DNA of 64,000 bases from Nanobdellota archaeon (GCA_038044925.1 JBBSZC010000004.1:11166-75165), one strand, 5' to 3'; positions 7,207-60,391 are shown, counted from the stretch's first letter. Notes: generated from the letters alone by a model not told the origin. Program-made: numbers and translations.

Positions 7207-8304
7207 TTACTCCAAAAATTCAATCCCTAACTCTTCTTCAATCTCTTTGTGCCTTCTATCCTCAAGACTATCTCCTTGTCCGACGATCTGAGAGCTCTTT
7301 ACGCCTGTGACAATCAATAAAACCCTGATAGATTTTTCCATATCTTCTGAAATCTGCGCACCCCAAATCATTTTTGCATCAGGAGATAATTTATTTCCAA
7401 CTGTTTCAATTATTGATTTGCATTCATCTAAGCTCATATCAGATCCTCCAATTATATTTATTAGAGCGCCTGTTGCATCTGAAATATCCACATCCAGCAA
7501 AGGATTTTGAATTGCCTTTTCAACAGCTTCTGTTGCCCTATTTTGAGAATCTGATTCTCCCATGCCTATTAAAGAAACTCCTCCATCTATCATTATTGCT
7601 TTTATGTCTGCAAAATCCAGATTTACAAGACCTGATTTTGTTACCAATTCTGTTGTACCTTTTACGGCATTTGTTAGAATTTCGTCTGCAATTTTAAATG
7701 CAGTATGTAACGGCAGTTCAGGAGCTAATTCCAGCAGTTTATCATTAGGAATTACTATTAATGTATCAACACTATCCTGCATTCTCTCTAAACCATTCAT
7801 TGCATTTTCGATTCTTTTTCTTCCTTCTATTGAAAATGGAAGCGTAACAATTCCAATTACTAGAGCTCCTTGTTTTTTTGCTATTTCAGCGATTATTGGA
7901 GCAGCGCCTGTTCCTGTTCCCCCCCCTAATCCGCAGGTAATAAATATCATGTCGCTTCCTAAAAGTTTTTTCTTTATTTCTGACTCTGATTCTTTTGCTG
8001 CTTCTGCCCCTATCTTTGGATTGCTTCCTGCTCCTAAACCCTGAGTTAATTCTCTTCCAATTAAAATTTTTTGGTCTGCATTAGCGTATAATAGATCCTG
8101 GGCATCTGTGTTCACTGCTATAAGTTCCCCTCCTTTAATCCCTATTTCCCTCATTCTGGAAAGAGAATTATTCCCTCCGCCTCCAACACCTATAACTTTT
8201 ATTTTTGCGTTTTGTTTTTTTAGTAATTCTTCTAATTCCTTATCTATTTCACTGACATTTGAAGAAATATCTATTCTGTGTTCATCCCTTTGTACAACTG
8301 CCAT
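7207..8304 (-). CDS. ftsZ: cell division GTPase FtsZ
   Basis: IGVGGGGNN, tubulin signature GGGTGTGAAPIIAEIAK. Confidence 0.9.
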   Translation of the reverse strand: MAVVQRDEHRIDISSNVSEIDKELEELLKKQNAKIKVIGVGGGGNNSLSRMREIGIKGGELIAVNTDAQDLLYANADQKILIGRELTQGLGAGSNPKIGAEAAKESESEIKKKLLGSDMIFITCGLGGGTGTGAAPIIAEIAKKQGALVIGIVTLPFSIEGRKRIENAMNGLERMQDSVDTLIVIPNDKLLELAPELPLHTAFKIADEILTNAVKGTTELVTKSGLVNLDFADIKAIMIDGGVSLIGMGESDSQNRATEAVEKAIQNPLLDVDISDATGALINIIGGSDMSLDECKSIIETVGNKLSPDAKMIWGAQISEDMEKSIRVLLIVTGVKSSQIVGQGDSLEDRRHKEIEEELGIEFLE

Positions 8305-24827: not shown

Positions 24828-26390
24828 ATGATTGAGTTATTAAAAAAATATTTTGGTTATAATGAATTTAGGCCCATGCAATTAGATATTATAGACCATG
24901 TTCTAAAAAATAAAGATTCTCTTGTGATTATGCCAACAGGCGGTGGAAAGTCTATTTGTTACCAGCTTCCCACATTAAAGTTGGAAGGGCTTACTCTAGT
25001 TATTTCGCCTCTTATCTCTTTAATGAAAGACCAAGTAGATAGTTTAAGAGCGAATGGCATTAATGCAGAGTACATTAATTCAACTCTCTTTCCTGAGGAG
25101 ATTAGTTTAATTCAAGATAAAATTCAAAAAAAAGAAATAAAACTTCTTTATATTGCTCCTGAAAGATTAGCATTAGAAGAGTTTAAAGTATTTTTGAGTA
25201 CATTGCAGATTAGTTTAATTGCTATAGATGAAGCCCATTGTATTTCTGAATGGGGTCATGATTTTCGACCAGAATATAGAAATTTAAAATCTTTAAGAAT
25301 ACTTTTTCCAGACGCCCCCATAATCGCTTTAACCGCAACAGCTACAGAAAGAGTAAGAATAGACATATTAAAACAATTATCCTTAAGAGAGCCTAAACTA
25401 TTCATCTCGAGTTTTAATAGAAAAAATCTAAATTTAATGGTTGTAGAAAAAAAGAAAACTGTGGAAAGGATTATAAAAATGCTTGAAGAATATGCAGATG
25501 AATCAGTTATTATCTACTGTTTTTCTCGTAAGGATTCTGAAAACATTGGTGAAAGATTAAGAAATCATGGATTTGATGCTCTTCCCTATCATGCAGGACT
25601 TGATAATGAAACAAGAAAAAAGAATCAGGACATGTTTATTAAAGATAAAGTTAATATTATTGTAGCAACAATTGCATTTGGAATGGGCATTAATAAACCA
25701 GATGTTAGATTAATTATTCATCATACTTTTCCAAAAACACTTGAAGGTTATTATCAGGAAATAGGAAGGGCAGGAAGGGATGGGCTTTCAAGTGATTGTG
25801 TGCTTTTTTATTCAAGAGGAGATAGAAGAAAGCATGAATTTTTTATTGATAAAATAGAAGATGAAACGACAAAGAACAATGCAAGAACTAAATTAAATCA
25901 GGTCATGAATTATTGTGAAGATCTTTCTTGCAGAAGAAAACAAATACTCAAATATTTTGGAGAGGATTTTTTAGAGGCTAACTGCGGAGCCTGTGATTCC
26001 TGCATGGATTTATCAAAACCTGGGAAAACAGAGCAGAAAGTCTTAATTTCAAAAGAAAAAGGGAAAGTTATAGAATATAACCATGAATTATTTGAGAAAT
26101 TGAGAATTCTAAGAAAGAAGATTGCTACTCAAAGAAATGTTCCTCCTTTTATAATATTCGGAGATGTTTCATTAAGAGAAATGGCTAGCCATCTTCCAAG
26201 TAATAATGAAGAATTCTTAAATATTAAAGGAGTTGGACAGCAAAAATTAAAAGATTTTGGAGACTTGTTTCTAGATGCCATTAAAAACTACCTAAAAGAA
26301 AAAAGAGATGGAGATAATGGGGATATCTTAGATTATGCTCAAGATGAAAATAACTCCGGAACAGATTATCATGAAAGATTAAAAAAATAA
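24828..26390 (+). CDS. recQ: RecQ-family ATP-dependent DNA helicase with HRDC-like C-terminus
   Basis: FRPMQLDII, MPTGGGKSICYQLP, DEAHCISEWGHDFR, zinc-binding Cys cluster; C-terminal region HRDC-like. Confidence 0.85.
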   Translation: MIELLKKYFGYNEFRPMQLDIIDHVLKNKDSLVIMPTGGGKSICYQLPTLKLEGLTLVISPLISLMKDQVDSLRANGINAEYINSTLFPEEISLIQDKIQKKEIKLLYIAPERLALEEFKVFLSTLQISLIAIDEAHCISEWGHDFRPEYRNLKSLRILFPDAPIIALTATATERVRIDILKQLSLREPKLFISSFNRKNLNLMVVEKKKTVERIIKMLEEYADESVIIYCFSRKDSENIGERLRNHGFDALPYHAGLDNETRKKNQDMFIKDKVNIIVATIAFGMGINKPDVRLIIHHTFPKTLEGYYQEIGRAGRDGLSSDCVLFYSRGDRRKHEFFIDKIEDETTKNNARTKLNQVMNYCEDLSCRRKQILKYFGEDFLEANCGACDSCMDLSKPGKTEQKVLISKEKGKVIEYNHELFEKLRILRKKIATQRNVPPFIIFGDVSLREMASHLPSNNEEFLNIKGVGQQKLKDFGDLFLDAIKNYLKEKRDGDNGDILDYAQDENNSGTDYHERLKK

Positions 26391-26554
26391 GAGAAAGTTA
26401 TGCTAATGCTTATGAACCCTGGAAACAAGAAGAAGATGAAAAATTAAAAATATTAAATTATGAAAATAAAACTATTTCTGAAATTGCACAAATTCTAATG
26501 CGACAGCCTAGTGCGATTAGGTCAAGATTAAGGAAATTTGGTTTAGCAAAGTGA
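26375..26554 (+). other. ORF without a start codon in the -1 frame directly after RecQ, encoding a Myb/SANT-like HTH; possible frameshift-fused RecQ extension
   Basis: EPWKQEEDEKLKILNYENKTISEIAQILMRQPSAIRSRLRKFG; entered from the RecQ frame by a -1 slip in A7 at 26381-26387. Confidence 0.3.
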
Positions 26555-36403: not shown

Positions 36404-37455
36404 TTAAAGGGAGCTAGGGATGGGTGCATAAATAGCTTTTACAACATTCCTCCTTAACTTAAAGCTATTAGCCCACTTTGCATAGGCGTTCCAACCATTA
36501 AAACTTTCTAATAGTTTTTCCTTACTTAATTCTCCGCTTTTGTGTTGTCTTATTCTGAATATTATATTTCTTAAATTTTTCTTTCTTAACAAGTTATAGT
36601 GATAGAATTTTCTAAACCCTACAAAATCAATTCCTCTTGATAGAGGAATTATTTTAGATTTCTGAGAATGTAGTTCTAGCTTTAATTTTTCTTTCAATAA
36701 TCTGTTTATTTGCTCTTTCCACACTTCTAGTTGTTCCTTAGAATTATGAAGAATAACAAAATCATCTACATATCTAATATAATATCTAGCCCGTAACTTA
36801 TTCTTAACAAACCAATCCAATTCGTGAAGATAAACGTTGGCGAAGAATTGGGAGGTTAGATTGCCGAGAGGCATTCCTTTCTCGCAAAAACTCGTTCGCC
36901 CCCCCCCCCGAACGAGTTCGGGCTGTTATTAAGAATCTGACCAATCAACCAAATAACTTTTTTATCTTTAATCTTTCTGCTTAAAATTTCTATTAAAATC
37001 TTGTAATTAACTTCTTTAAAATAATGCTTTATGTCTGCTTTCAAACAAAAGGAAATTCTGCTATTGTTTTTAGTAACTTTTCTCTGAAATAATTCAAATC
37101 TTTTAAGTGCAAATAAATTCCCCTTTCCTACTCTGTTCGCACAAGAATCATAAATAAAAGATTTGTCAAAAAGTGGCTCAATTATTCTAACAACTGCATG
37201 ATGAACTATTCTATCGGGAAAGGCAGACTTTGAAATTTTGCGGGTTTTTGGGTCTCTTAACACAAAGTTCTTTAGAGGTTCTGGCTTATATGTCTGATTT
37301 TTTAGCTTATCTGACAAGCTGATTAGATTTTTAAATAAATTAGCTTCAAATTCAATAACATAGTTCTTTTTAGTCTTGCCTTTTCTTGCTTTTCTCCAAG
37401 CAAGAATTAAGTTAGACAAATTATAAATCTGCTCATATAAGTTATTAGTTTCCAT
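36404..37455 (-). CDS. DGR-type reverse transcriptase, split into two ORFs (37455-36856 and 36874-36404) by a frameshift inside a G11 homopolymer
   Basis: N-terminal LILAWRKARKGK; motif 3 ADIKHYFKEV; motif 4 KGMPLGNLTSQFFANVYLHELD; motif 5 YVDDFVI; adding one G (12 instead of 11) gives continuous ...NSFGGGGRTSFCEKGMPLGN... Confidence 0.8.
36891..36917. repeat. C11 (G11 on the coding strand) homopolymer flanked by a 10-bp inverted repeat, AACTCGTTCG-C(n)-CGAACGAGTT, inside the RT gene
   Basis: 11 consecutive C at 36899-36909 in a roughly 29% GC genome; flanking arms perfectly complementary. Confidence 0.85.
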
Positions 37456-37484
37456 AATAAGTATAAAGTCTTAGGAGTTAGAGC

Positions 37485-37576
37485 TATTCCAGACGCATAA
37501 CCATACTCGACATCAGCATGGTAGTTGCCATTGACATTCAACCTGTCACCATTCCAGTTCGAATTCACCGCGGATA
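37485..37576 (-). other. DGR template repeat (TR)
   Basis: About 89-nt repeat of the VR; at all 13 mismatches TR has A on the coding strand; TR codons AAT/AAC dominate. Confidence 0.85.
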
Positions 37577-37746
37577 GTTATGTAGCCAGTTTACCTTCCT
37601 ATCACTGAAATTCCTCGTAAGGAAAATCTGTATTTTATGACTTAAAATAAAATCAAATATGTCTTGATAAATTGGCATGTAGCCCTAGCTTATCGCTAAG
37701 ACAAAAATTAACTAAAATAAGAATTAATAAACCTTTACTTATTTTT

Positions 37747-38442
37747 TTACGAAGCGCCTTCGGCGCTTTTTGGCAATACCCCAGACGCAAAACCATACCC
37801 GACATCAGCATGGTAGTAGCCATGGACATACAACCTGACACCAAGCCAGTCCGAATCCACCGCGGTATATTTTTTCAAATCTCTATTTTGAGAGTCTAAA
37901 GCACCAACATAAGGTGCTTTTCTGCTTATTTTTTCAGCAACTCTTGCTACAACATCTTCAGCGAAATCTTTATCTGTAACTTGTCCAATTATATAAGAAT
38001 TTGCAACTAAATCTGAAACTGACTGGTTTCCTGTCTTAAATCCATATTTAACTAATCTTACTGCCTTATCTCCATCTTTCATTCTTTTTATTAAACTTGC
38101 CCTATCTGTTGGCATAGTTCCATCAATATTATCATAAAGAATAACATCTTCTTTTCCCCATAAATTCTCAGTAGTCGTCAATAGCCATTGGTTTTTTACT
38201 CTGGAAACTATATCCTTGCATTGTTTATTATCTGGATTGCTTAATGCAAAATCTATTAAAGAAAATGTCTGGGCAGTTGTAGGTCTTAGTAATTTTCCTT
38301 TTGTAATTGCACCCATAACTTTTTGGTGAGTTCCTGGTCCTTCAAGAGGATAAGCACTTGTTAAAATCCCATTTCCGTGCTTATAATCCATTTCGGTTCT
38401 AGCTATTCTTATTCTTCCACCATTTAGTTCTTTAGTTATCAT
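37747..38442 (-). CDS. DGR target (variable) protein with C-terminal VR; N-terminal domain of unknown family
   Basis: 231-aa ORF; the last roughly 40 aa are encoded by the VR; no obvious signal peptide. Confidence 0.75.
   Translation of the reverse strand: MITKELNGGRIRIARTEMDYKHGNGILTSAYPLEGPGTHQKVMGAITKGKLLRPTTAQTFSLIDFALSNPDNKQCKDIVSRVKNQWLLTTTENLWGKEDVILYDNIDGTMPTDRASLIKRMKDGDKAVRLVKYGFKTGNQSVSDLVANSYIIGQVTDKDFAEDVVARVAEKISRKAPYVGALDSQNRDLKKYTAVDSDWLGVRLYVHGYYHADVGYGFASGVLPKSAEGAS
37750..37773 (-). promoter_or_regulatory. GC-rich stem-loop (7-bp stem AAGCGCC/GGCGCTT, 4-nt loop) 8 nt downstream of the VR
   Basis: Perfect GC-rich hairpin in an AT-rich context, at the position of the homing-enhancing hairpin of characterised DGRs. 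Confidence 0.5.
37777..37868 (-). other. DGR variable repeat (VR) encoding the C-terminus of the target protein
   Basis: See TR; VR reads ...TAVDSDWLGVRLYVHGYYHADVGYGFASGV versus TR SAVNSNWNGDRLNVNGNYHADVEYGYASGI. Confidence 0.85.
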
Positions 38443-52077: not shown

Positions 52078-53554
52078 GGCTGATTTAAGAAATATATTTA
52101 ACTTCATTCCAGAAGTTACAAAACCCGAGGAAAAAAAATTAAGTTTTAATACTAAACTTAAGTGGACTCTTGTGATATTAGTCGCTTTTTTTGTTCTTGC
52201 TAATGTTCCTCTTTATGGATTGTCAAATAATGCCCTCGAGAGATTTAAATACTTAGCTATAATCCTTGGAACAGATTTTGGAAGTATTATTTCTTTAGGT
52301 ATTGGCCCTATAGTTATGGCTTCTATTATACTGCAGTTATTAACTGGTGCAGAAATTTTAAAGATAGATACATCTTCAGAAGAAGGAAGAAAATTTTTCC
52401 AAGGAATTCAAAAATTATTAGTTTTATTTTTCATAATCTTTGAAGCATTGGTTTATGTATTAATGCAAGGACTTCAAGCAATGCCTGGATTAGCTCCTAT
52501 AGTTATAGCTCAATTAATTTTAGGAGGATTAGCAATCTTTTATATGGATGAAGTTACAACTAAATGGGGATTTGGTTCAGGAGTTAGTCTATTTATTGGA
52601 GCAGGAGTTTCATGGAGATTAATCACCTCAGCATTCCAGTTTATAAATCAGCAAGGAGAAAATTGCCTTTTGAATTTTTCTGGGACTGCTTGCAGCGGTA
52701 AGTTTTTTGTAATGATACAATCCATAATAAATAATGCTCCTACAGAATTTATATCTGCATTAGCTGCTGTTCTTGTAACAGCTATAATATTTTTAATTAT
52801 TGTATGGGTTCAGTCTTTAAAGGTTGAAATTCCTTTAAGTTTTGGAAGAATAAGGGGCTATTCTGTCAAGTGGCCTTTATCATTTTTTTATGCTTCTGTT
52901 ATTCCAGTAATATTAACTGCAGCATTAATTGCAAATTTGCAGTTGCTTGGAGGAATAGTAGAAAATGCTGCTTCCATCTGCATTAATCCAGAAATTGCAT
53001 CTAATATAACAAATGCAACAATTTCTGAAGGATGTACAGGAATAGCAAAGGTATCTTCGTATTTCACTTTTTTAGGGCATTTTATTAATGGGCAAGCAGT
53101 TTCAGGTTTTGCTTTCTGGTTAGGTTCCACTGATATTTTGCAATTGACTCTAAAGGGGGGGTTTTTGTGGATATATCTGCTTCAATCAATAACGCATATA
53201 TTCTTTTTTGTTTTGTTTTCAACAGTGTTTGCTATATTTTGGGTTAAAACATCTGGAATGGATTCAAAGGCGCAAGCAAATAAAATAGCTGCGTCTGGGC
53301 TGCAAATTGCTGGATTCAGACAAGATAATAGGGTTTTAGAAAGTATATTAGACAGGTACATCATGCCTTTAACAGTGATGGGAGGAATTGCCGTTGGTTT
53401 ATTGGCTGCTATTAGTGATTTATTAGGTGCTTTGGTTGGAGGAACTGCAATACTGCTAGTTATTATGATAATGTTCCAGTTCTACCAGAATATTGCTAAA
53501 GAGCACCAAGTAGATATGAATCCTTCTGTAAGAAAATTTATTAGCGGTGCATGA
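52076..53554 (+). CDS. secY: preprotein translocase SecY
   Basis: 10-TM SecY family; follows L15. Confidence 0.9.
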   Translation: MADLRNIFNFIPEVTKPEEKKLSFNTKLKWTLVILVAFFVLANVPLYGLSNNALERFKYLAIILGTDFGSIISLGIGPIVMASIILQLLTGAEILKIDTSSEEGRKFFQGIQKLLVLFFIIFEALVYVLMQGLQAMPGLAPIVIAQLILGGLAIFYMDEVTTKWGFGSGVSLFIGAGVSWRLITSAFQFINQQGENCLLNFSGTACSGKFFVMIQSIINNAPTEFISALAAVLVTAIIFLIIVWVQSLKVEIPLSFGRIRGYSVKWPLSFFYASVIPVILTAALIANLQLLGGIVENAASICINPEIASNITNATISEGCTGIAKVSSYFTFLGHFINGQAVSGFAFWLGSTDILQLTLKGGFLWIYLLQSITHIFFFVLFSTVFAIFWVKTSGMDSKAQANKIAASGLQIAGFRQDNRVLESILDRYIMPLTVMGGIAVGLLAAISDLLGALVGGTAILLVIMIMFQFYQNIAKEHQVDMNPSVRKFISGA

Positions 53555-57634: not shown

Positions 57635-60391
57635 ATGGACATTGAAAGCCTTTCTGAAAAAGAAGTAATAGAACAAAGAAAAAAGAGTATAAACGAGTTT
57701 CTAACTAAAAAAAAGCAATGGATTTATTATCTAATTCTTTCCTTAATTATATTTTTGGGGGTGTATATAAGAACTCTAAATATTTCAAAATTAAAAGATA
57801 TAACAACAGGAACCTGGACATTAGGACCTGATTTAGATCCTTTTCTTTTTTTAAGGTGGGCAAAAGAAATAGTAGAAAATGGAAGCTTAATGACTCATGA
57901 TATAATGAGATATGTTCCTTTAGGATATGATACTGCTGGAGAGATGAAATTGCTAGCTTATATGATAGCGTGGTTTCATAATATACTTTCATTCTTCCCT
58001 CTTACAGATAATGTTACTTATTCTGCAATAATATTTCCTGTAGCAATGTTTGCTTTAACCACAATTGCTTTCTTTTTATTTGCTAGGAAAATATTCTTTA
58101 AAGAATCAGATTTGATAAAAAATTCAATCGCTTTAATAGCAACATTATTATTCGTTTTAGTTCCTTCTTTACTTCCTAGGACAATTGCTGGAATTCCTGA
58201 AAAAGAATCTGTCGCTTTTTTCTTTATGTTTATGGCTTTTTATTTCTTTATTAGTGCTTTCACAAGTGAAAAAAGAAATAAATCATTTATATTATCTGTA
58301 CTTGCTGGAATTTCGACAGGACTAATGGCTTTGGTTTGGGGGGGAGTTATATTTATTTTCTTTACAATACCTGGAGCTGTTTTCTTATCCTTTATTTTAG
58401 GAAAAGTTGGGAAAAAAGAATTAATATGCTATGGTATGTGGGTTTTTTCATCCTTTGCTATAATGATGCCTTTTTCCACAAGATATACTTTATGGAATTT
58501 AGCAATATCTACCTCTACTGGTTTTGGATTAGGAATATTAATAATACTTTTATTCAGCTTACTTTTCTATAAAGATAAAAAAATAGAAAAATTAGAAGAA
58601 AAAACCAAAATTCCTAGAGAAATCTTACTTGCCCTAATCTTTTCATTGATTATGCTTATAGTAATATCAATAATTTTGGGTCCTGGGTTTATCTTAGGGC
58701 AAATAAATGAAATTCAAAATAATTTAATAGAGCCATCTTCAACAAGGTTTAGTTTTACTGTAGCTGAAAACAAACAACCCTACTTTAATAATGATTGGAA
58801 AGATAATTTCGGGCCAATTTTGTATAATATTCCTATTTATTTTTGGCTTTTCTTTTTTGGCTCAGTTCTTTTATTTTTTAATATGATCTCTGCATTAGGC
58901 AAAAAAGAGAAATTAAAATTAACTATCGGATATATATTATTTTTAATATGCTTAATATTCAGCAGATATTCAGCATCTAGTATATTTAATGGGGTAAATG
59001 GGACAAGCATTGTTACTTATTTTGCCGGGTGGATAATCTTAATATATTTATCAGCAGAGACTTATTATAAAAATTTTAAAAAAGAAAAATTAGAAGTTTT
59101 TAAGAAATTTAATTTTGCATATATATTATATTTTATAATATTAACTTTAGGAATTATTGGGGCTAGGGGAGGTATAAGGCTTATTATGGTGCTTGGATCA
59201 ATAAGCCCCATAGCAGTTTCTTTTTTAATAGTCAAGACAATAAACAAGTCATTTAAAGAAAAAAAAGAAAGCAGTGAAGAAGCTAAAAATGAAGATAGTA
59301 AAATTTTAATGAAATTTATAGCAGTAGTTTTTATATTACTTTCTGCTTTTATAGTATATAATTATTATATTTTAGATAAATCCAATGCTGAAAACTTTGC
59401 CCCCGGAGCATATCAATGGCAATGGCAAGAAGCAATGTCTTGGGTTAGAAGCAACACATCTCAAAATGCTGTTTTTGCACACTGGTGGGATTATGGCTAT
59501 TGGGTTCAGTCTATTGGAGAAAGAGCAACAATATTAGACGGGGGAAATGCAATAGTATACTGGGATTATTTAATGGGAAGATATGTATTAACAGAGCCAG
59601 ATGATTCTAAAACTTTAGAATTTTTATATACCCATAATGCGACTCATCTATTAATTGATTCAACTGAAATTGGAAAATATACTGCATTTTCAAGCATAGG
59701 CTCTGATGAAAATTATGATAGATTTTCATGGATATCAATATTTTTGTTAGAGGAGGGAAAAATAACAGAAACTGGCAATAAAACTATTTATCTATATTCT
59801 GGAGGAAGTGCGACTGATGAAGATATTGTGTGGAAAGAAAATAATAATGAAATTTTCCTTCCTGCAAAAAAAACAATTGTGGGCGGGGTAATATTACAAT
59901 TAGATCAAAAAGGAAAATTTTCTCAGCCACAAGCAGCATATTTCTATCAAAACAAGCAATATAATATTCCTCTAAAATATCTTTATGTTGAAAAAGACCA
60001 AAAAATAACTACTTTTGATTCTGGTTTAGAGGCAGGAATATTTTTATTCCCAAAAATTAATGTTGATGCTGATAATAAAGCTGGAATTAATTATTATGGC
60101 GCTTCTTTATATTTAAGCAGGCGTACAATAAACTCTAAGATAGCACAATTATACTTATTCGATAAAAAAACAGATTCTTTTAAAATAACCCATATTGAAA
60201 GCAATCAGATAATAAACTCATTAAAGGGGCAGGGTACAGATTTAAAAGAATTTATATATTATAGTGGATTTCAAGGTCCGATTAAAATTTGGGAAATAAA
60301 TTACCCCAGCACAATTAAAGCAAACCCTGAATACTTAAAAACAGATTATCCAAATAAGTCCATAGAGATAGCTAAACCTGGAGAATATTAA
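57635..60391 (+). CDS. aglB: oligosaccharyltransferase AglB (STT3)
   Basis: WWDYGYWV motif, 13 N-terminal TMs; start taken at ATG 57635. Confidence 0.85.
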   Translation: MDIESLSEKEVIEQRKKSINEFLTKKKQWIYYLILSLIIFLGVYIRTLNISKLKDITTGTWTLGPDLDPFLFLRWAKEIVENGSLMTHDIMRYVPLGYDTAGEMKLLAYMIAWFHNILSFFPLTDNVTYSAIIFPVAMFALTTIAFFLFARKIFFKESDLIKNSIALIATLLFVLVPSLLPRTIAGIPEKESVAFFFMFMAFYFFISAFTSEKRNKSFILSVLAGISTGLMALVWGGVIFIFFTIPGAVFLSFILGKVGKKELICYGMWVFSSFAIMMPFSTRYTLWNLAISTSTGFGLGILIILLFSLLFYKDKKIEKLEEKTKIPREILLALIFSLIMLIVISIILGPGFILGQINEIQNNLIEPSSTRFSFTVAENKQPYFNNDWKDNFGPILYNIPIYFWLFFFGSVLLFFNMISALGKKEKLKLTIGYILFLICLIFSRYSASSIFNGVNGTSIVTYFAGWIILIYLSAETYYKNFKKEKLEVFKKFNFAYILYFIILTLGIIGARGGIRLIMVLGSISPIAVSFLIVKTINKSFKEKKESSEEAKNEDSKILMKFIAVVFILLSAFIVYNYYILDKSNAENFAPGAYQWQWQEAMSWVRSNTSQNAVFAHWWDYGYWVQSIGERATILDGGNAIVYWDYLMGRYVLTEPDDSKTLEFLYTHNATHLLIDSTEIGKYTAFSSIGSDENYDRFSWISIFLLEEGKITETGNKTIYLYSGGSATDEDIVWKENNNEIFLPAKKTIVGGVILQLDQKGKFSQPQAAYFYQNKQYNIPLKYLYVEKDQKITTFDSGLEAGIFLFPKINVDADNKAGINYYGASLYLSRRTINSKIAQLYLFDKKTDSFKITHIESNQIINSLKGQGTDLKEFIYYSGFQGPIKIWEINYPSTIKANPEYLKTDYPNKSIEIAKPGEY

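What the first reader, a model, noticed from the sequence alone, without database searches (positions are those of the whole stretch)
26375..26554. RecQ ends in a slippery A7 run, followed in the -1 frame by a Myb/SANT-like HTH ORF lacking a start codon
The RecQ stop is ...TTAAAAAAATAA. A -1 slip in AAAAAAA (26381-26387) continues into 56 more codons encoding EPWKQEEDEKLKILNYENKTISEIAQILMRQPSAIRSRLRKFG, a W-x2-EED...IA..L..R Myb-like helix-turn-helix. There are three explanations: programmed frameshifting producing a RecQ-HTH isoform, a homopolymer sequencing error in a fused gene, or gene decay.
Basis: partly seen in the sequence, partly recalled or inferred. Interest (0 to 1): 0.55.

Follow-up and report, generated by a model that had tools for sequence, protein, structure and literature searches.

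The report
RecQ gene broken by one-base deletion
A DNA-repair helicase gene (RecQ) of an uncultured groundwater nanoarchaeon has lost one A from an A8 run, which cuts off its small C-terminal DNA-binding-type domain; this is an ordinary homopolymer frameshift mutation, not a conserved recoding signal.

Summary
RecQ (24828-26390, 520 aa) ends ...HERLKK* on A7+TAA. The -1 frame stays open to 26554 and has no usable start codon.

That -1 peptide is the missing C-terminus of the same protein. It matches residues 515-571 of the closest orthologue (79% identity, E=2e-29). Dozens of Nanoarchaeota/Pacearchaeota RecQ orthologues of 570-582 aa read straight through this point.

The closest relative has A8 exactly where the window has A7. 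Other relatives have AAGAAAA, AAGAGAA or AGGAAAA there, so neither a slippery run nor a frame break is conserved. No RNA structure follows the site (z=0.07).

A7 is identical in two separately sequenced and separately assembled replicate samples. The window's tail shows a small excess of lineage-specific amino-acid changes (7 nonsynonymous to 1 synonymous, against 8:18 in intact relatives).

Best reading: a real, fairly recent one-base deletion leaves a truncated but probably working RecQ, since natural tail-less relatives exist. Slippage may occasionally restore the tail, which is untested. An assembly error or a selected recoding site is less likely.

The tail is a three-helix HTH, Myb/homeodomain-like in fold only, from a widespread module with no Pfam family. 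Interest is low.

Seen in passing: a complete diversity-generating retroelement (DGR) whose reverse transcriptase (RT) is frame-broken at a G11 run.

The parts
24828..26390 (+). RecQ ORF as it stands (520 aa): DEAD/Helicase_C core, RecQ zinc-binding domain, HRDC, a variable linker, and the first 9 residues (TDYHERLKK) of the conserved tail module. No RQC winged helix.
   Evidence: Pfam DEAD 2.3e-27, Helicase_C 3.6e-22, RecQ_Zn_bind 3.9e-18, HRDC 3.3e-22; TIGR01389 recQ 641.8 bits. Identical to NCBI MEK6875268.1.
26381..26387 (+). A7 homopolymer, the site of the one-base deletion. In the zero frame it reads (tt)A AAA AAA, immediately before the stop.
   Evidence: The closest relatives L003/L087/L088/L092, and L096-98, have A8 in frame at the homologous position. 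Others have AAGAAAA, AAGAGAA or AGGAAAA.
26388..26390 (+). TAA stop created by the frame change. In the intact gene these bases are parts of the Ile and Arg/Lys codons.
26387..26554 (+). Orphaned C-terminal tail in the -1 frame (55 codons plus TGA). It encodes a three-helix HTH module: NAYEPW...EED..L......EIAQIL.RQPSAIRSRL.KFGL.
   Evidence: BLASTP to the P0002 C-terminus, E=2e-29. All invariant columns kept. AlphaFold2 pLDDT 84 with helices 18-29, 34-41 and 45-55.
26375..26386 (+). Start of the -1 open stretch, right after the TGA at 26372-26374. It overlaps the end of RecQ and has no start codon or Shine-Dalgarno-like motif.

Best explanation
In this Nanoarchaeota population the ancestral gene encoded a 575-aa RecQ: helicase core, Zn domain, HRDC, linker, and a C-terminal three-helix HTH tail. 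The Lys-Lys-Ile codons TTA AAA AAA ATA formed an A8 run.

Replication slippage removed one A, giving A7. The zero frame now meets TAA at once, and the last 55 codons sit in the -1 frame with no start codon of their own.

The main product is therefore a 520-aa RecQ without the HTH. It is probably still an active helicase, because every catalytic domain is intact and tail-less relatives exist naturally.

The tail is a young remnant: still open, with conserved residues intact, but apparently under relaxed constraint. Because the break lies in A AAA AAA directly before a stop codon, occasional -1 ribosomal slippage or RNA-polymerase insertion of an A could restore some full-length protein. That would be an incidental by-product, not an evolved programme.

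Shown here: the homology, the A8/A7 difference, the lack of conservation of the site, and reproducibility across assemblies. Inferred: that the deletion is real in the cells, that the truncated enzyme works, and that any slippage rescue occurs.
For: 1. Fused ancestry. 573-582-aa orthologues at 66-87% identity cover 100% of the conceptually repaired protein. Their sequences read ...DYHKRLKKIKENYANAYEPW... with the same spacing as the window's repaired ...DYHERLKKIRESYANAYEPW....

2. The closest relative's DNA is AGATTAAAAAAAATAAAAGAG (A8); the window has A7.

3. Of 45 metagenome loci carrying both RecQ body and tail (some are duplicates of one sequence), 42 are in one frame. None is broken at this site.

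4. A7 is identical in L001 and L002, each 100% identical to the window over 7,563 bp. These come from replicate filters. Each was made into its own NextSeq library and assembled on its own with metaSPAdes (PMC8672522). The window's own 122-kb NCBI contig carries the same 520-aa protein.

5. Lineage-specific changes in the tail are 7 nonsynonymous to 1 synonymous in the window. The four intact relatives together have 8:18 (Fisher p=0.011), and the window's own RecQ body has 28:39 (p=0.022).

6. Tail-less RecQ is viable in this clade. In P0095, P0071 and P0041 (498-505 aa) the next gene follows within 20-50 nt, leaving no room for a remnant.

7. Related loci carry independent breaks, mostly at nucleotide runs. 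L113 has C5->C4 inside HRDC. L125 has at least two frame changes plus a stop in the tail region. L004 has A7->A6 near the end. L095 has a break in the linker that is not at a homopolymer.

8. 24 of the window's 27 A/T runs of 8 or more lie inside ORFs, so such mutational hot spots are abundant.
Against: No reads were available, so A7 rests on consensus sequence from roughly 6x-coverage contigs of one well and one sampling date.

The tail has no stop codon, and it departs from residues invariant in the other 14 tails at only one column (K->R). That fits a very recent event, an artefact, or continued use.

The relaxed-constraint signal rests on 8 substitutions and was a post-hoc test.

The repaired 575-aa allele is absent from the 15-billion-protein collection. 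This is weak evidence in either direction.
Confidence: 0.64

Rival explanations
1. Sequencing or assembly artefact. The real genome has A8 and an intact 575-aa RecQ, and the consensus dropped one A in the homopolymer.
For: The tail is perfectly open and keeps all conserved residues. Contig coverage is only about 6x. The same window holds a second one-base-short homopolymer break, G11 in the DGR reverse transcriptase. Several low-coverage relatives also show frame breaks, mostly at nucleotide runs.
Against: A7 is identical in at least two separately prepared, sequenced and assembled replicates and in the NCBI MAG contig. From general knowledge, Illumina indel error at an 8-mer A-run is low and not systematic. 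A8 runs are assembled in frame in relatives, including contigs of the same project type. 24 other A/T runs of 8 or more in the window sit in frame in ORFs. The window's tail shows an excess of nonsynonymous lineage-specific changes, which an artefact would not produce.
Confidence: 0.15
2. Selected recoding. The A AAA AAA-TAA site is used for -1 ribosomal frameshifting or transcriptional slippage, producing a fixed ratio of RecQ-short and RecQ-HTH isoforms.
For: A canonical X XXY YYZ heptamer (A AAA AAA) sits in the zero frame directly before a stop. The nearly identical A-AAA-AAT drives 5-10% -1 frameshifting in the archaeal fucA1 gene (PMC1616953). Poly-A transcriptional slippage gives two functional TssM isoforms in Citrobacter (PMC4256274). 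The tail is still intact.
Against: The arrangement is unique to this population. All close relatives are in frame, and most lack any A-run at the site. There is no downstream stimulatory structure: MFE -5.2 kcal/mol, z=0.07. A7 is shorter than the 9-11 nt runs documented for efficient transcriptional slippage (PMC5009743; PMC4256274). There is a hint of relaxed, not maintained, constraint on the tail.
Confidence: 0.09
3. Standing polymorphism or phase variation. A7 and A8 alleles coexist and interconvert by slippage, switching the HTH tail off and on, and the assemblies happened to report the majority A7.
For: Homopolymers are classic contingency sites (general knowledge). Indels at nucleotide runs recur in this gene family (L004, L113, L125). 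A G11 break lies in the neighbouring DGR RT.
Against: No A8 version of this protein exists in any assembly searched. An A8 tract is short for high-frequency switching. There is nothing to suggest that on/off switching of a RecQ tail would be useful.
Confidence: 0.1

Closest known systems
Sulfolobus solfataricus fucA1 (alpha-L-fucosidase), expressed by programmed -1 frameshifting at A-AAA-AAT (PMC1616953)
   Same: An archaeal gene split into two ORFs related by a -1 shift at an A-rich X XXY YYZ heptamer. The downstream part lacks its own start. Full-length orthologues exist elsewhere.
   Different: fucA1 frameshifting was shown experimentally (5-10%) and depends on the heptamer. Here nothing is measured, no flanking stimulator is predicted, the break sits at the very end of the gene, and all catalytic domains lie upstream. 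The closest relative simply has one more A.
Citrobacter rodentium tssM1 and endosymbiont (Buchnera, Blochmannia) poly-A frameshifts rescued by transcriptional slippage (PMC4256274; PMC5009743)
   Same: A C-terminal domain is put out of frame at a poly-A run just before a premature stop, and adding an A to the mRNA would restore it. The genome is AT-rich and reduced, with many poly-A tracts.
   Different: The documented cases have runs of about 9-11 A. Here the run is only 7. In tssM1 both isoforms were shown to be required. Here tail-less relatives show the tail is dispensable.
Ordinary homopolymer-indel pseudogenisation or truncation
   Same: A one-base change in run length relative to an in-frame orthologue, an immediate stop, a downstream remnant still recognisable, and no conservation of the lesion.
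   Different: Nothing essential differs. Only the youth and intactness of the remnant, and its position on a slippery heptamer, leave room for residual expression.
RecQ helicases with accessory C-terminal HTH domains (e.g. HTH_40, PF14493)
   Same: A RecQ core plus HRDC followed by a small helix-turn-helix module. A roughly 682-aa subgroup of the same clade carries HTH_40 and this tail together (P0008).
   Different: The tail module itself matches no Pfam family above threshold. This clade lacks the RQC winged helix typical of bacterial RecQ.

Membership tests
RecQ family DNA helicase (TIGR01389 / TIGR00614) | Superfamily-2 helicase core (DEAD plus Helicase_C) | tested here: met
   Pfam DEAD 2.3e-27 and Helicase_C 3.6e-22. 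TIGR01389 641.8 bits against a cut-off of 640.2; TIGR00614 511.8 bits.
RecQ family DNA helicase (TIGR01389 / TIGR00614) | RecQ zinc-binding domain and HRDC domain | tested here: met
   RecQ_Zn_bind 3.9e-18 (residues 331-392) and HRDC 3.3e-22 (residues 420-485).
RecQ family DNA helicase (TIGR01389 / TIGR00614) | RQC winged-helix domain between the Zn domain and HRDC | tested here: not met
   No RQC hit at E<=1. The TIGR01389 match covers model positions 3-397, then resumes at HRDC. The whole clade shares this shortened layout.
Programmed -1 ribosomal frameshift site | X XXY YYZ slippery heptamer in the zero frame | tested here: met
   (tt)A AAA AAA at 26381-26387, followed by TAA.
Programmed -1 ribosomal frameshift site | Stimulatory RNA structure a few nucleotides downstream | tested here: not met
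   Folding 26376-26480 gives MFE -5.2 kcal/mol, z=0.07, and 97 of 200 shuffles fold at least as well.
Programmed -1 ribosomal frameshift site | Conservation of the two-frame arrangement and shift site in orthologues | tested here: not met
   42 of 45 related loci are in one frame, and none is broken here. The homologous site reads A8, AAGAAAA, AAGAGAA, AGGAAAA or GAA/CAA-interrupted.
Programmed -1 ribosomal frameshift site | Detectable trans-frame product at a defined ratio | not testable with these tools
   Needs proteomics or a reporter assay.
Programmed transcriptional slippage site | Long homopolymer, about 9 or more A/T in documented cases | tested here: not met
   The run is A7. Documented cases have 9-11 (PMC5009743; PMC4256274).
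Myb/SANT DNA-binding domain (PF00249 / PF13921) | Score above the Pfam gathering threshold | tested here: not met
   Myb_DNA-bind_6 scores 17.0 bits against 22.9. Myb_DNA-binding scores 13.3 against 24.4. Sigma70_r4_2, HTH_5 and HTH_38 score about equally weakly.
Myb/SANT DNA-binding domain (PF00249 / PF13921) | Three-helix bundle with a helix-turn-helix | tested here: met
   AlphaFold2 model with pLDDT 84 and three core helices. The Foldseek hits with the highest match probability are Tc3 transposase and TyrR DNA-binding domains, Reb1 (Myb-like; rmsd 1.2 A over 40 residues) and Cbp2 2lvs. No hit has E<=1e-3. Profile search against PDB: 2lvs E=0.0012, c-Myb repeats E about 0.4.
Myb/SANT DNA-binding domain (PF00249 / PF13921) | Three regularly spaced Trp/aromatic core residues | tested here: inconclusive
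   Only one invariant Trp (NAYxxW). The other core positions are Leu/Ile.
Homopolymer-indel truncation (pseudogene-type lesion) | An in-frame orthologue differing by one base in run length at the same site | tested here: met
   L003/L087/L088/L092 have A8 against the window's A7.
Homopolymer-indel truncation (pseudogene-type lesion) | The lesion is real in the DNA, not an assembly error | tested here: inconclusive
   It is reproduced in independent replicate libraries and assemblies. No reads were inspected.
Homopolymer-indel truncation (pseudogene-type lesion) | Relaxed selection on the orphaned part | tested here: inconclusive
   7 nonsynonymous to 1 synonymous unique changes, against 8:18 in relatives (p=0.011). 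Counts are small, there is no stop codon yet, and pairwise dN/dS is still 0.19-0.26.

The most novel reading that the evidence does not exclude
The A AAA AAA-TAA junction works as a recoding site, by -1 ribosomal frameshifting or RNA-polymerase slippage, in a DPANN archaeon. One gene would then yield mostly tail-less RecQ plus a minor RecQ-HTH isoform. That would be only the second archaeal -1 frameshifting case after fucA1, caught close to its evolutionary origin from a simple deletion.
Probability: 0.08. Interest if true: 0.6.

Novelty: new member of a known kind. Interest (0 to 1): 0.2.

Why it matters
For annotation, the deposited 520-aa RecQ (MEK6875268.1) is a truncated form of a 575-aa protein. 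The 165 nt after it are not intergenic DNA but an orphaned domain.

More broadly, this is a clean small example of how AT-rich, reduced DPANN genomes lose accessory domains through homopolymer slippage. The same RecQ clade shows intact, freshly broken, decayed and cleanly tail-less states.

The tail is a widespread three-helix HTH module (NAYxxW...RQPxAIRSRL) with about 4,700 cluster representatives. It is often tandem and has no Pfam family above threshold, so it may merit a family definition. None of this is surprising to a specialist.

If residual frameshifting were shown, the site would become a useful natural substrate for studying archaeal -1 frameshifting.

Tried and rejected
1. A genome-contig scan with the full-length alignment used generic helicase motifs as patterns. 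The tail-only alignment against metagenome contigs did the job.

I re-ran it with the pure -1 frame peptide.

3. A Foldseek search of PDB gave no hit with E<=1e-3 for this 59-residue model. Only the fold class can be stated.

4. I looked for a frameshift-stimulating RNA structure and found none. The promoter and terminator pattern scans were uninformative. They model a bacterial sigma-70-type promoter and an intrinsic terminator, and this is an archaeon.

5. I considered independent translation of the tail and rejected it. There is no ATG/GTG/TTG before codon 42 of 59 and no GGAGG-like motif, although such motifs precede many genes in the window.

6. My first window-wide screen for split genes flagged only RecQ. 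It missed the G11-split reverse transcriptase, because a chance ATG lies near that junction. The claim that RecQ is the only broken gene in the window was therefore dropped. Other overlapping same-strand ORF pairs proved to be distinct genes.

7. Pairwise dN/dS alone could not date the lesion, because dS to the nearest relative is about 0.65. Lineage-specific counts were used instead, and they are only suggestive.

Full report
**Observation.** The + strand ORF 24828-26390 encodes a 520-aa protein ending ...TDYHERLKK*. Its last codons are AGA TTA AAA AAA TAA, with the A7 run at 26381-26387. In the -1 frame a TGA lies at 26372-26374. From 26375 that frame stays open to the TGA at 26552-26554 and reads KIKKIRESYANAYEPWKQEEDEKLKILNYENKTISEIAQILMRQPSAIRSRLRKFGLAK. 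The only ATG/GTG/TTG in it is the Met 18 codons before the end. Every coordinate and sequence detail in the finding is therefore correct. The window is 30% GC and has 157 A/T runs of 7 or more, so an A7 run or a 59-codon open stretch means little in isolation. The case rests on homology.

**What the two pieces are.** The upstream ORF is a RecQ helicase with DEAD, Helicase_C, RecQ_Zn_bind and HRDC domains. It passes the TIGR01389 cut-off but has no RQC winged helix. I searched with the conceptually repaired 575-aa protein against 5.8 billion proteins.
- The window's own 520-aa protein appears (P0001, "MAG: Nanoarchaeota archaeon", NCBI MEK6875268.1), covering 90% of the query.
- The next-best hits are dozens of orthologues of 570-582 aa at 66-87% identity that cover 99-100% of the query.
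- Their C-termini read ...ETDYHKRLKKIKENYANAYEPWKEEDDLRLK.LNSENKTISEIAQILMRQPGAIRSRLRKLGL... This matches the window's zero-frame end joined to its -1 frame, with identical spacing.
- The -1 peptale alone aligns to residues 515-571 of P0002 at 79% identity, E=2e-29.
- The conserved module starts upstream of the break (DYHxRL), so the frame change cuts through a conserved element rather than lying between two genes.

**The lesion at DNA level.** The closest relative (L003, and also L087, L088 and L092) has AGA TTA AAA AAA ATA AAA GAG, which is A8 in frame, where the window has A7. Other close relatives have TTA AAG AAA ATA, TTG AAG AGA ATA or TTA AGG AAA ATA. More distant ones have GAA- or CAA-interrupted sequences. 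The run is thus an accident of Lys-Lys-Ile codon choice in one sub-lineage, and the window differs from it by loss of a single A. Of 45 metagenome loci carrying both the RecQ body and the tail (some are duplicates of one sequence), 42 are in one frame and none is broken at this site.

**Is it programmed recoding?** The heptamer A AAA AAA followed by a stop is formally slippery. It closely resembles A-AAA-AAT of Sulfolobus fucA1, which gives 5-10% -1 frameshifting (PMC1616953). Three defining features of a programmed site are nevertheless absent.
- The arrangement is not conserved (above).
- No RNA structure follows the site: MFE -5.2 kcal/mol, z=0.07.
- At 7 nt the run is shorter than the 9-11 nt tracts documented for efficient transcriptional slippage (PMC5009743; PMC4256274).

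Low-level incidental slippage remains mechanistically plausible. It is an inference and was not measured.

**Is it an artefact?** The exact 520-aa protein occurs on at least four contigs. L001 (Hain_H43_01um_R3) and L002 (Hain_H43_01um_R2) are each 100% identical to the window over 7,563 bp, including A7. According to the study that produced these data, each replicate filter was made into its own library. Each was sequenced on a NextSeq 500 (2x150) and assembled separately with metaSPAdes (PMC8672522). The window's own 122-kb NCBI contig carries the same protein. A8 runs are assembled in frame in relatives, and 24 of the window's 27 A/T runs of 8 or more lie in frame inside ORFs. A random consensus error repeated in independent assemblies is unlikely. 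However, coverage is only about 6x and no reads could be inspected, so I leave about 15% for an artefact.

**Evidence for a real lesion with some age.**
- Nei-Gojobori estimates against close relatives give dS of about 0.65. The dN/dS ratio is 0.09-0.12 for the body, 0.4-1.0 for the linker and 0.19-0.26 for the tail. Intact relatives compared with one another give 0.06-0.26 for the tail.
- Counting changes unique to each lineage, the window's tail has 7 amino-acid changes against 1 synonymous change. The four intact relatives together have 8:18 (Fisher p=0.011), and the window's own body has 28:39 (p=0.022). This fits relaxed constraint after the frameshift. The counts are small, the test was post hoc, and the changes are conservative (K->R, N->S, D->E, R->K, S->Y).
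- No stop codon has yet arisen in the tail, so the event is recent on this time scale.

**Is the truncated protein viable?** Probably. Relatives of 498-505 aa (P0095, P0071, P0041) end in the linker after HRDC, and the next gene follows within 20-50 nt, so they are naturally tail-less. The clade in fact shows every stage.
- Intact tail: most loci.
- Tail plus an inserted HTH_40 domain: the roughly 682-aa forms such as P0008.
- Freshly broken: this window.
- Decayed: L125 (=P0020), with at least two frame changes and a stop in the tail region, one of them AAAAGAAAA->AAAAAAA.
- Absent: the tail-less relatives above.
- Other breaks: C5->C4 inside HRDC in L113, a linker break in L095 that is not at a homopolymer, and A7->A6 altering the last residues in L004.

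Repeated loss or damage of the C-terminal part, mostly through slippage at nucleotide runs, is thus a pattern in these AT-rich genomes.

**What the tail is.**
- AlphaFold2, run with the 15-sequence tail alignment, gives a confident model: pLDDT 84, and above 90 in the core. It has an N-terminal helix followed by three helices at residues 18-29, 34-41 and 45-55.
- Foldseek against PDB gives no hit with E<=1e-3. The hits with the highest match probability are small HTH DNA-binding domains: TyrR, the Tc3 and Mos1 transposases, Myb-like Reb1 (rmsd 1.2 A over 40 residues, 35% identity) and the archaeal CRISPR-repeat-binding protein Cbp2 (2lvs). GerE and sigma region 4 rank lower.
- A profile search of PDB sequences finds 2lvs at E=0.0012 and c-Myb repeats at E of about 0.4.
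- Pfam hits (Myb_DNA-bind_6, Sigma70_r4_2, HTH_38, GcrA) are all below their gathering thresholds.

"Myb/SANT-like" is therefore fair as a fold description but not as family membership.

The module is widespread. A profile search of 1.84 billion cluster representatives finds 4,725 hits at E<=1e-3 and 777 at E<=1e-10. The module is usually C-terminal and often in tandem, with up to 10 copies. It also occurs as stand-alone proteins of 60-80 aa that have their own start. In metagenome contigs it is fused to DUF433, DUF3276, a 3'-5' exonuclease, and an RNA-polymerase alpha-CTD/sigma-r4 protein. A role in nucleic-acid binding or targeting, possibly compensating for the missing RQC winged helix, is my inference.

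**Context in the window.** A screen of all gene ends flagged RecQ as the only gene whose stop is spanned by a long start-less open stretch. Inspecting G/C homopolymers then revealed a second break. The reverse transcriptase of a complete diversity-generating retroelement is split at a G11 run. The window therefore holds at least two genes that are one base short at a homopolymer. This raises the prior for both artefacts and genuine slippage mutations. Poly-G is a known weak spot of two-colour Illumina chemistry (general knowledge), whereas A7/A8 is not.

**Verdict.** The feature is real, and it is the orphaned C-terminal domain of RecQ. My estimates are:
- about 0.64 for a genuine, recent one-base deletion in an A8 run that truncates RecQ;
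- about 0.15 for an assembly artefact;
- about 0.10 for A7/A8 polymorphism;
- about 0.09 for selected recoding.

It is a new instance of a well-known kind of lesion, and interest is low (0.2). The main practical value is correcting the annotation. The un-named HTH module and the broken DGR are side observations.

Noticed in passing
window 36404-38442 (- strand); G11 at 36899-36909: A complete diversity-generating retroelement. The target gene is 37747-38442, with the variable repeat at 37781-37865. The template repeat is 37489-37573: 85 nt with 10 mismatches, all template-A to variable-N. The reverse transcriptase is 36404-37455. The RT is split into 199-aa and 156-aa ORFs at a G11 run that forms the loop of a perfect 10-nt inverted repeat (AACTCGTTCG-G11-CGAACGAGTT). 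G12 or G9 would restore a 350-aa RVT_1 protein (Pfam E=6.8e-20 across the junction). The same fragment is on at least 2 contigs. This could be a poly-G sequencing artefact, a phase-variable switch of the DGR, or an inactivating mutation.
   Followed up: partly
L125 (Ga0213870_1003220) 2400-2560; L113 1640-1665; L095 2440-2470; L004 about 2590-2625: Related RecQ genes carry independent frame breaks. L125 (=P0020) has at least two frame changes and a stop in the linker/tail, including AAAAGAAAA->AAAAAAA. L113 has C5->C4 in the HRDC 'NVPPF' motif. L095 is broken in the linker, and its tail is called as a separate 77-aa protein (P0128). L004 (P0006) has A6 instead of A7, changing the last residues (RLKNLV* instead of RLKKFGLID*).
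   Followed up: partly
tail module, window 26387-26551; loci L137-L166; proteins P0121-P0270: The tail (consensus IKxxYxNAYEPWxxEEDxxLxxL...EIAxxLxRQPxAIRSRLxKLGL) is a widespread three-helix HTH module with no Pfam family above threshold. It has 4,725 cluster representatives at E<=1e-3 and occurs in up to 10 tandem copies. It is also fused to DUF433, DUF3276, a 3'-5' exonuclease and an RNAP alpha-CTD/sigma-r4 protein, and occurs as stand-alone 60-80-aa proteins in higher-GC contigs that are probably bacterial.
   Followed up: partly
RecQ clade, P0002-P0120: This Nanoarchaeota/Pacearchaeota RecQ clade lacks the RQC winged-helix domain altogether. It exists in three layouts: about 500 aa with no tail, about 575 aa with the tail, and about 682 aa with HTH_40 plus the tail. 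This hints at exchange between co-occurring ultra-small lineages.
   Followed up: no
P0125 (73 aa): This protein has an fmt-like N-terminus (MKIIFFGSSKFSVPAV) joined directly to a RecQ tail identical to that of P0003. It is probably a chimeric assembly or a rearrangement.
   Followed up: no
window 7919-7926 (C8), 53155-53161 and 58338-58344 (G7): Further G/C homopolymers of 7-8 nt, unusual in a 30% GC genome, lie inside ORFs. I did not check whether they coincide with frame problems.
   Followed up: no
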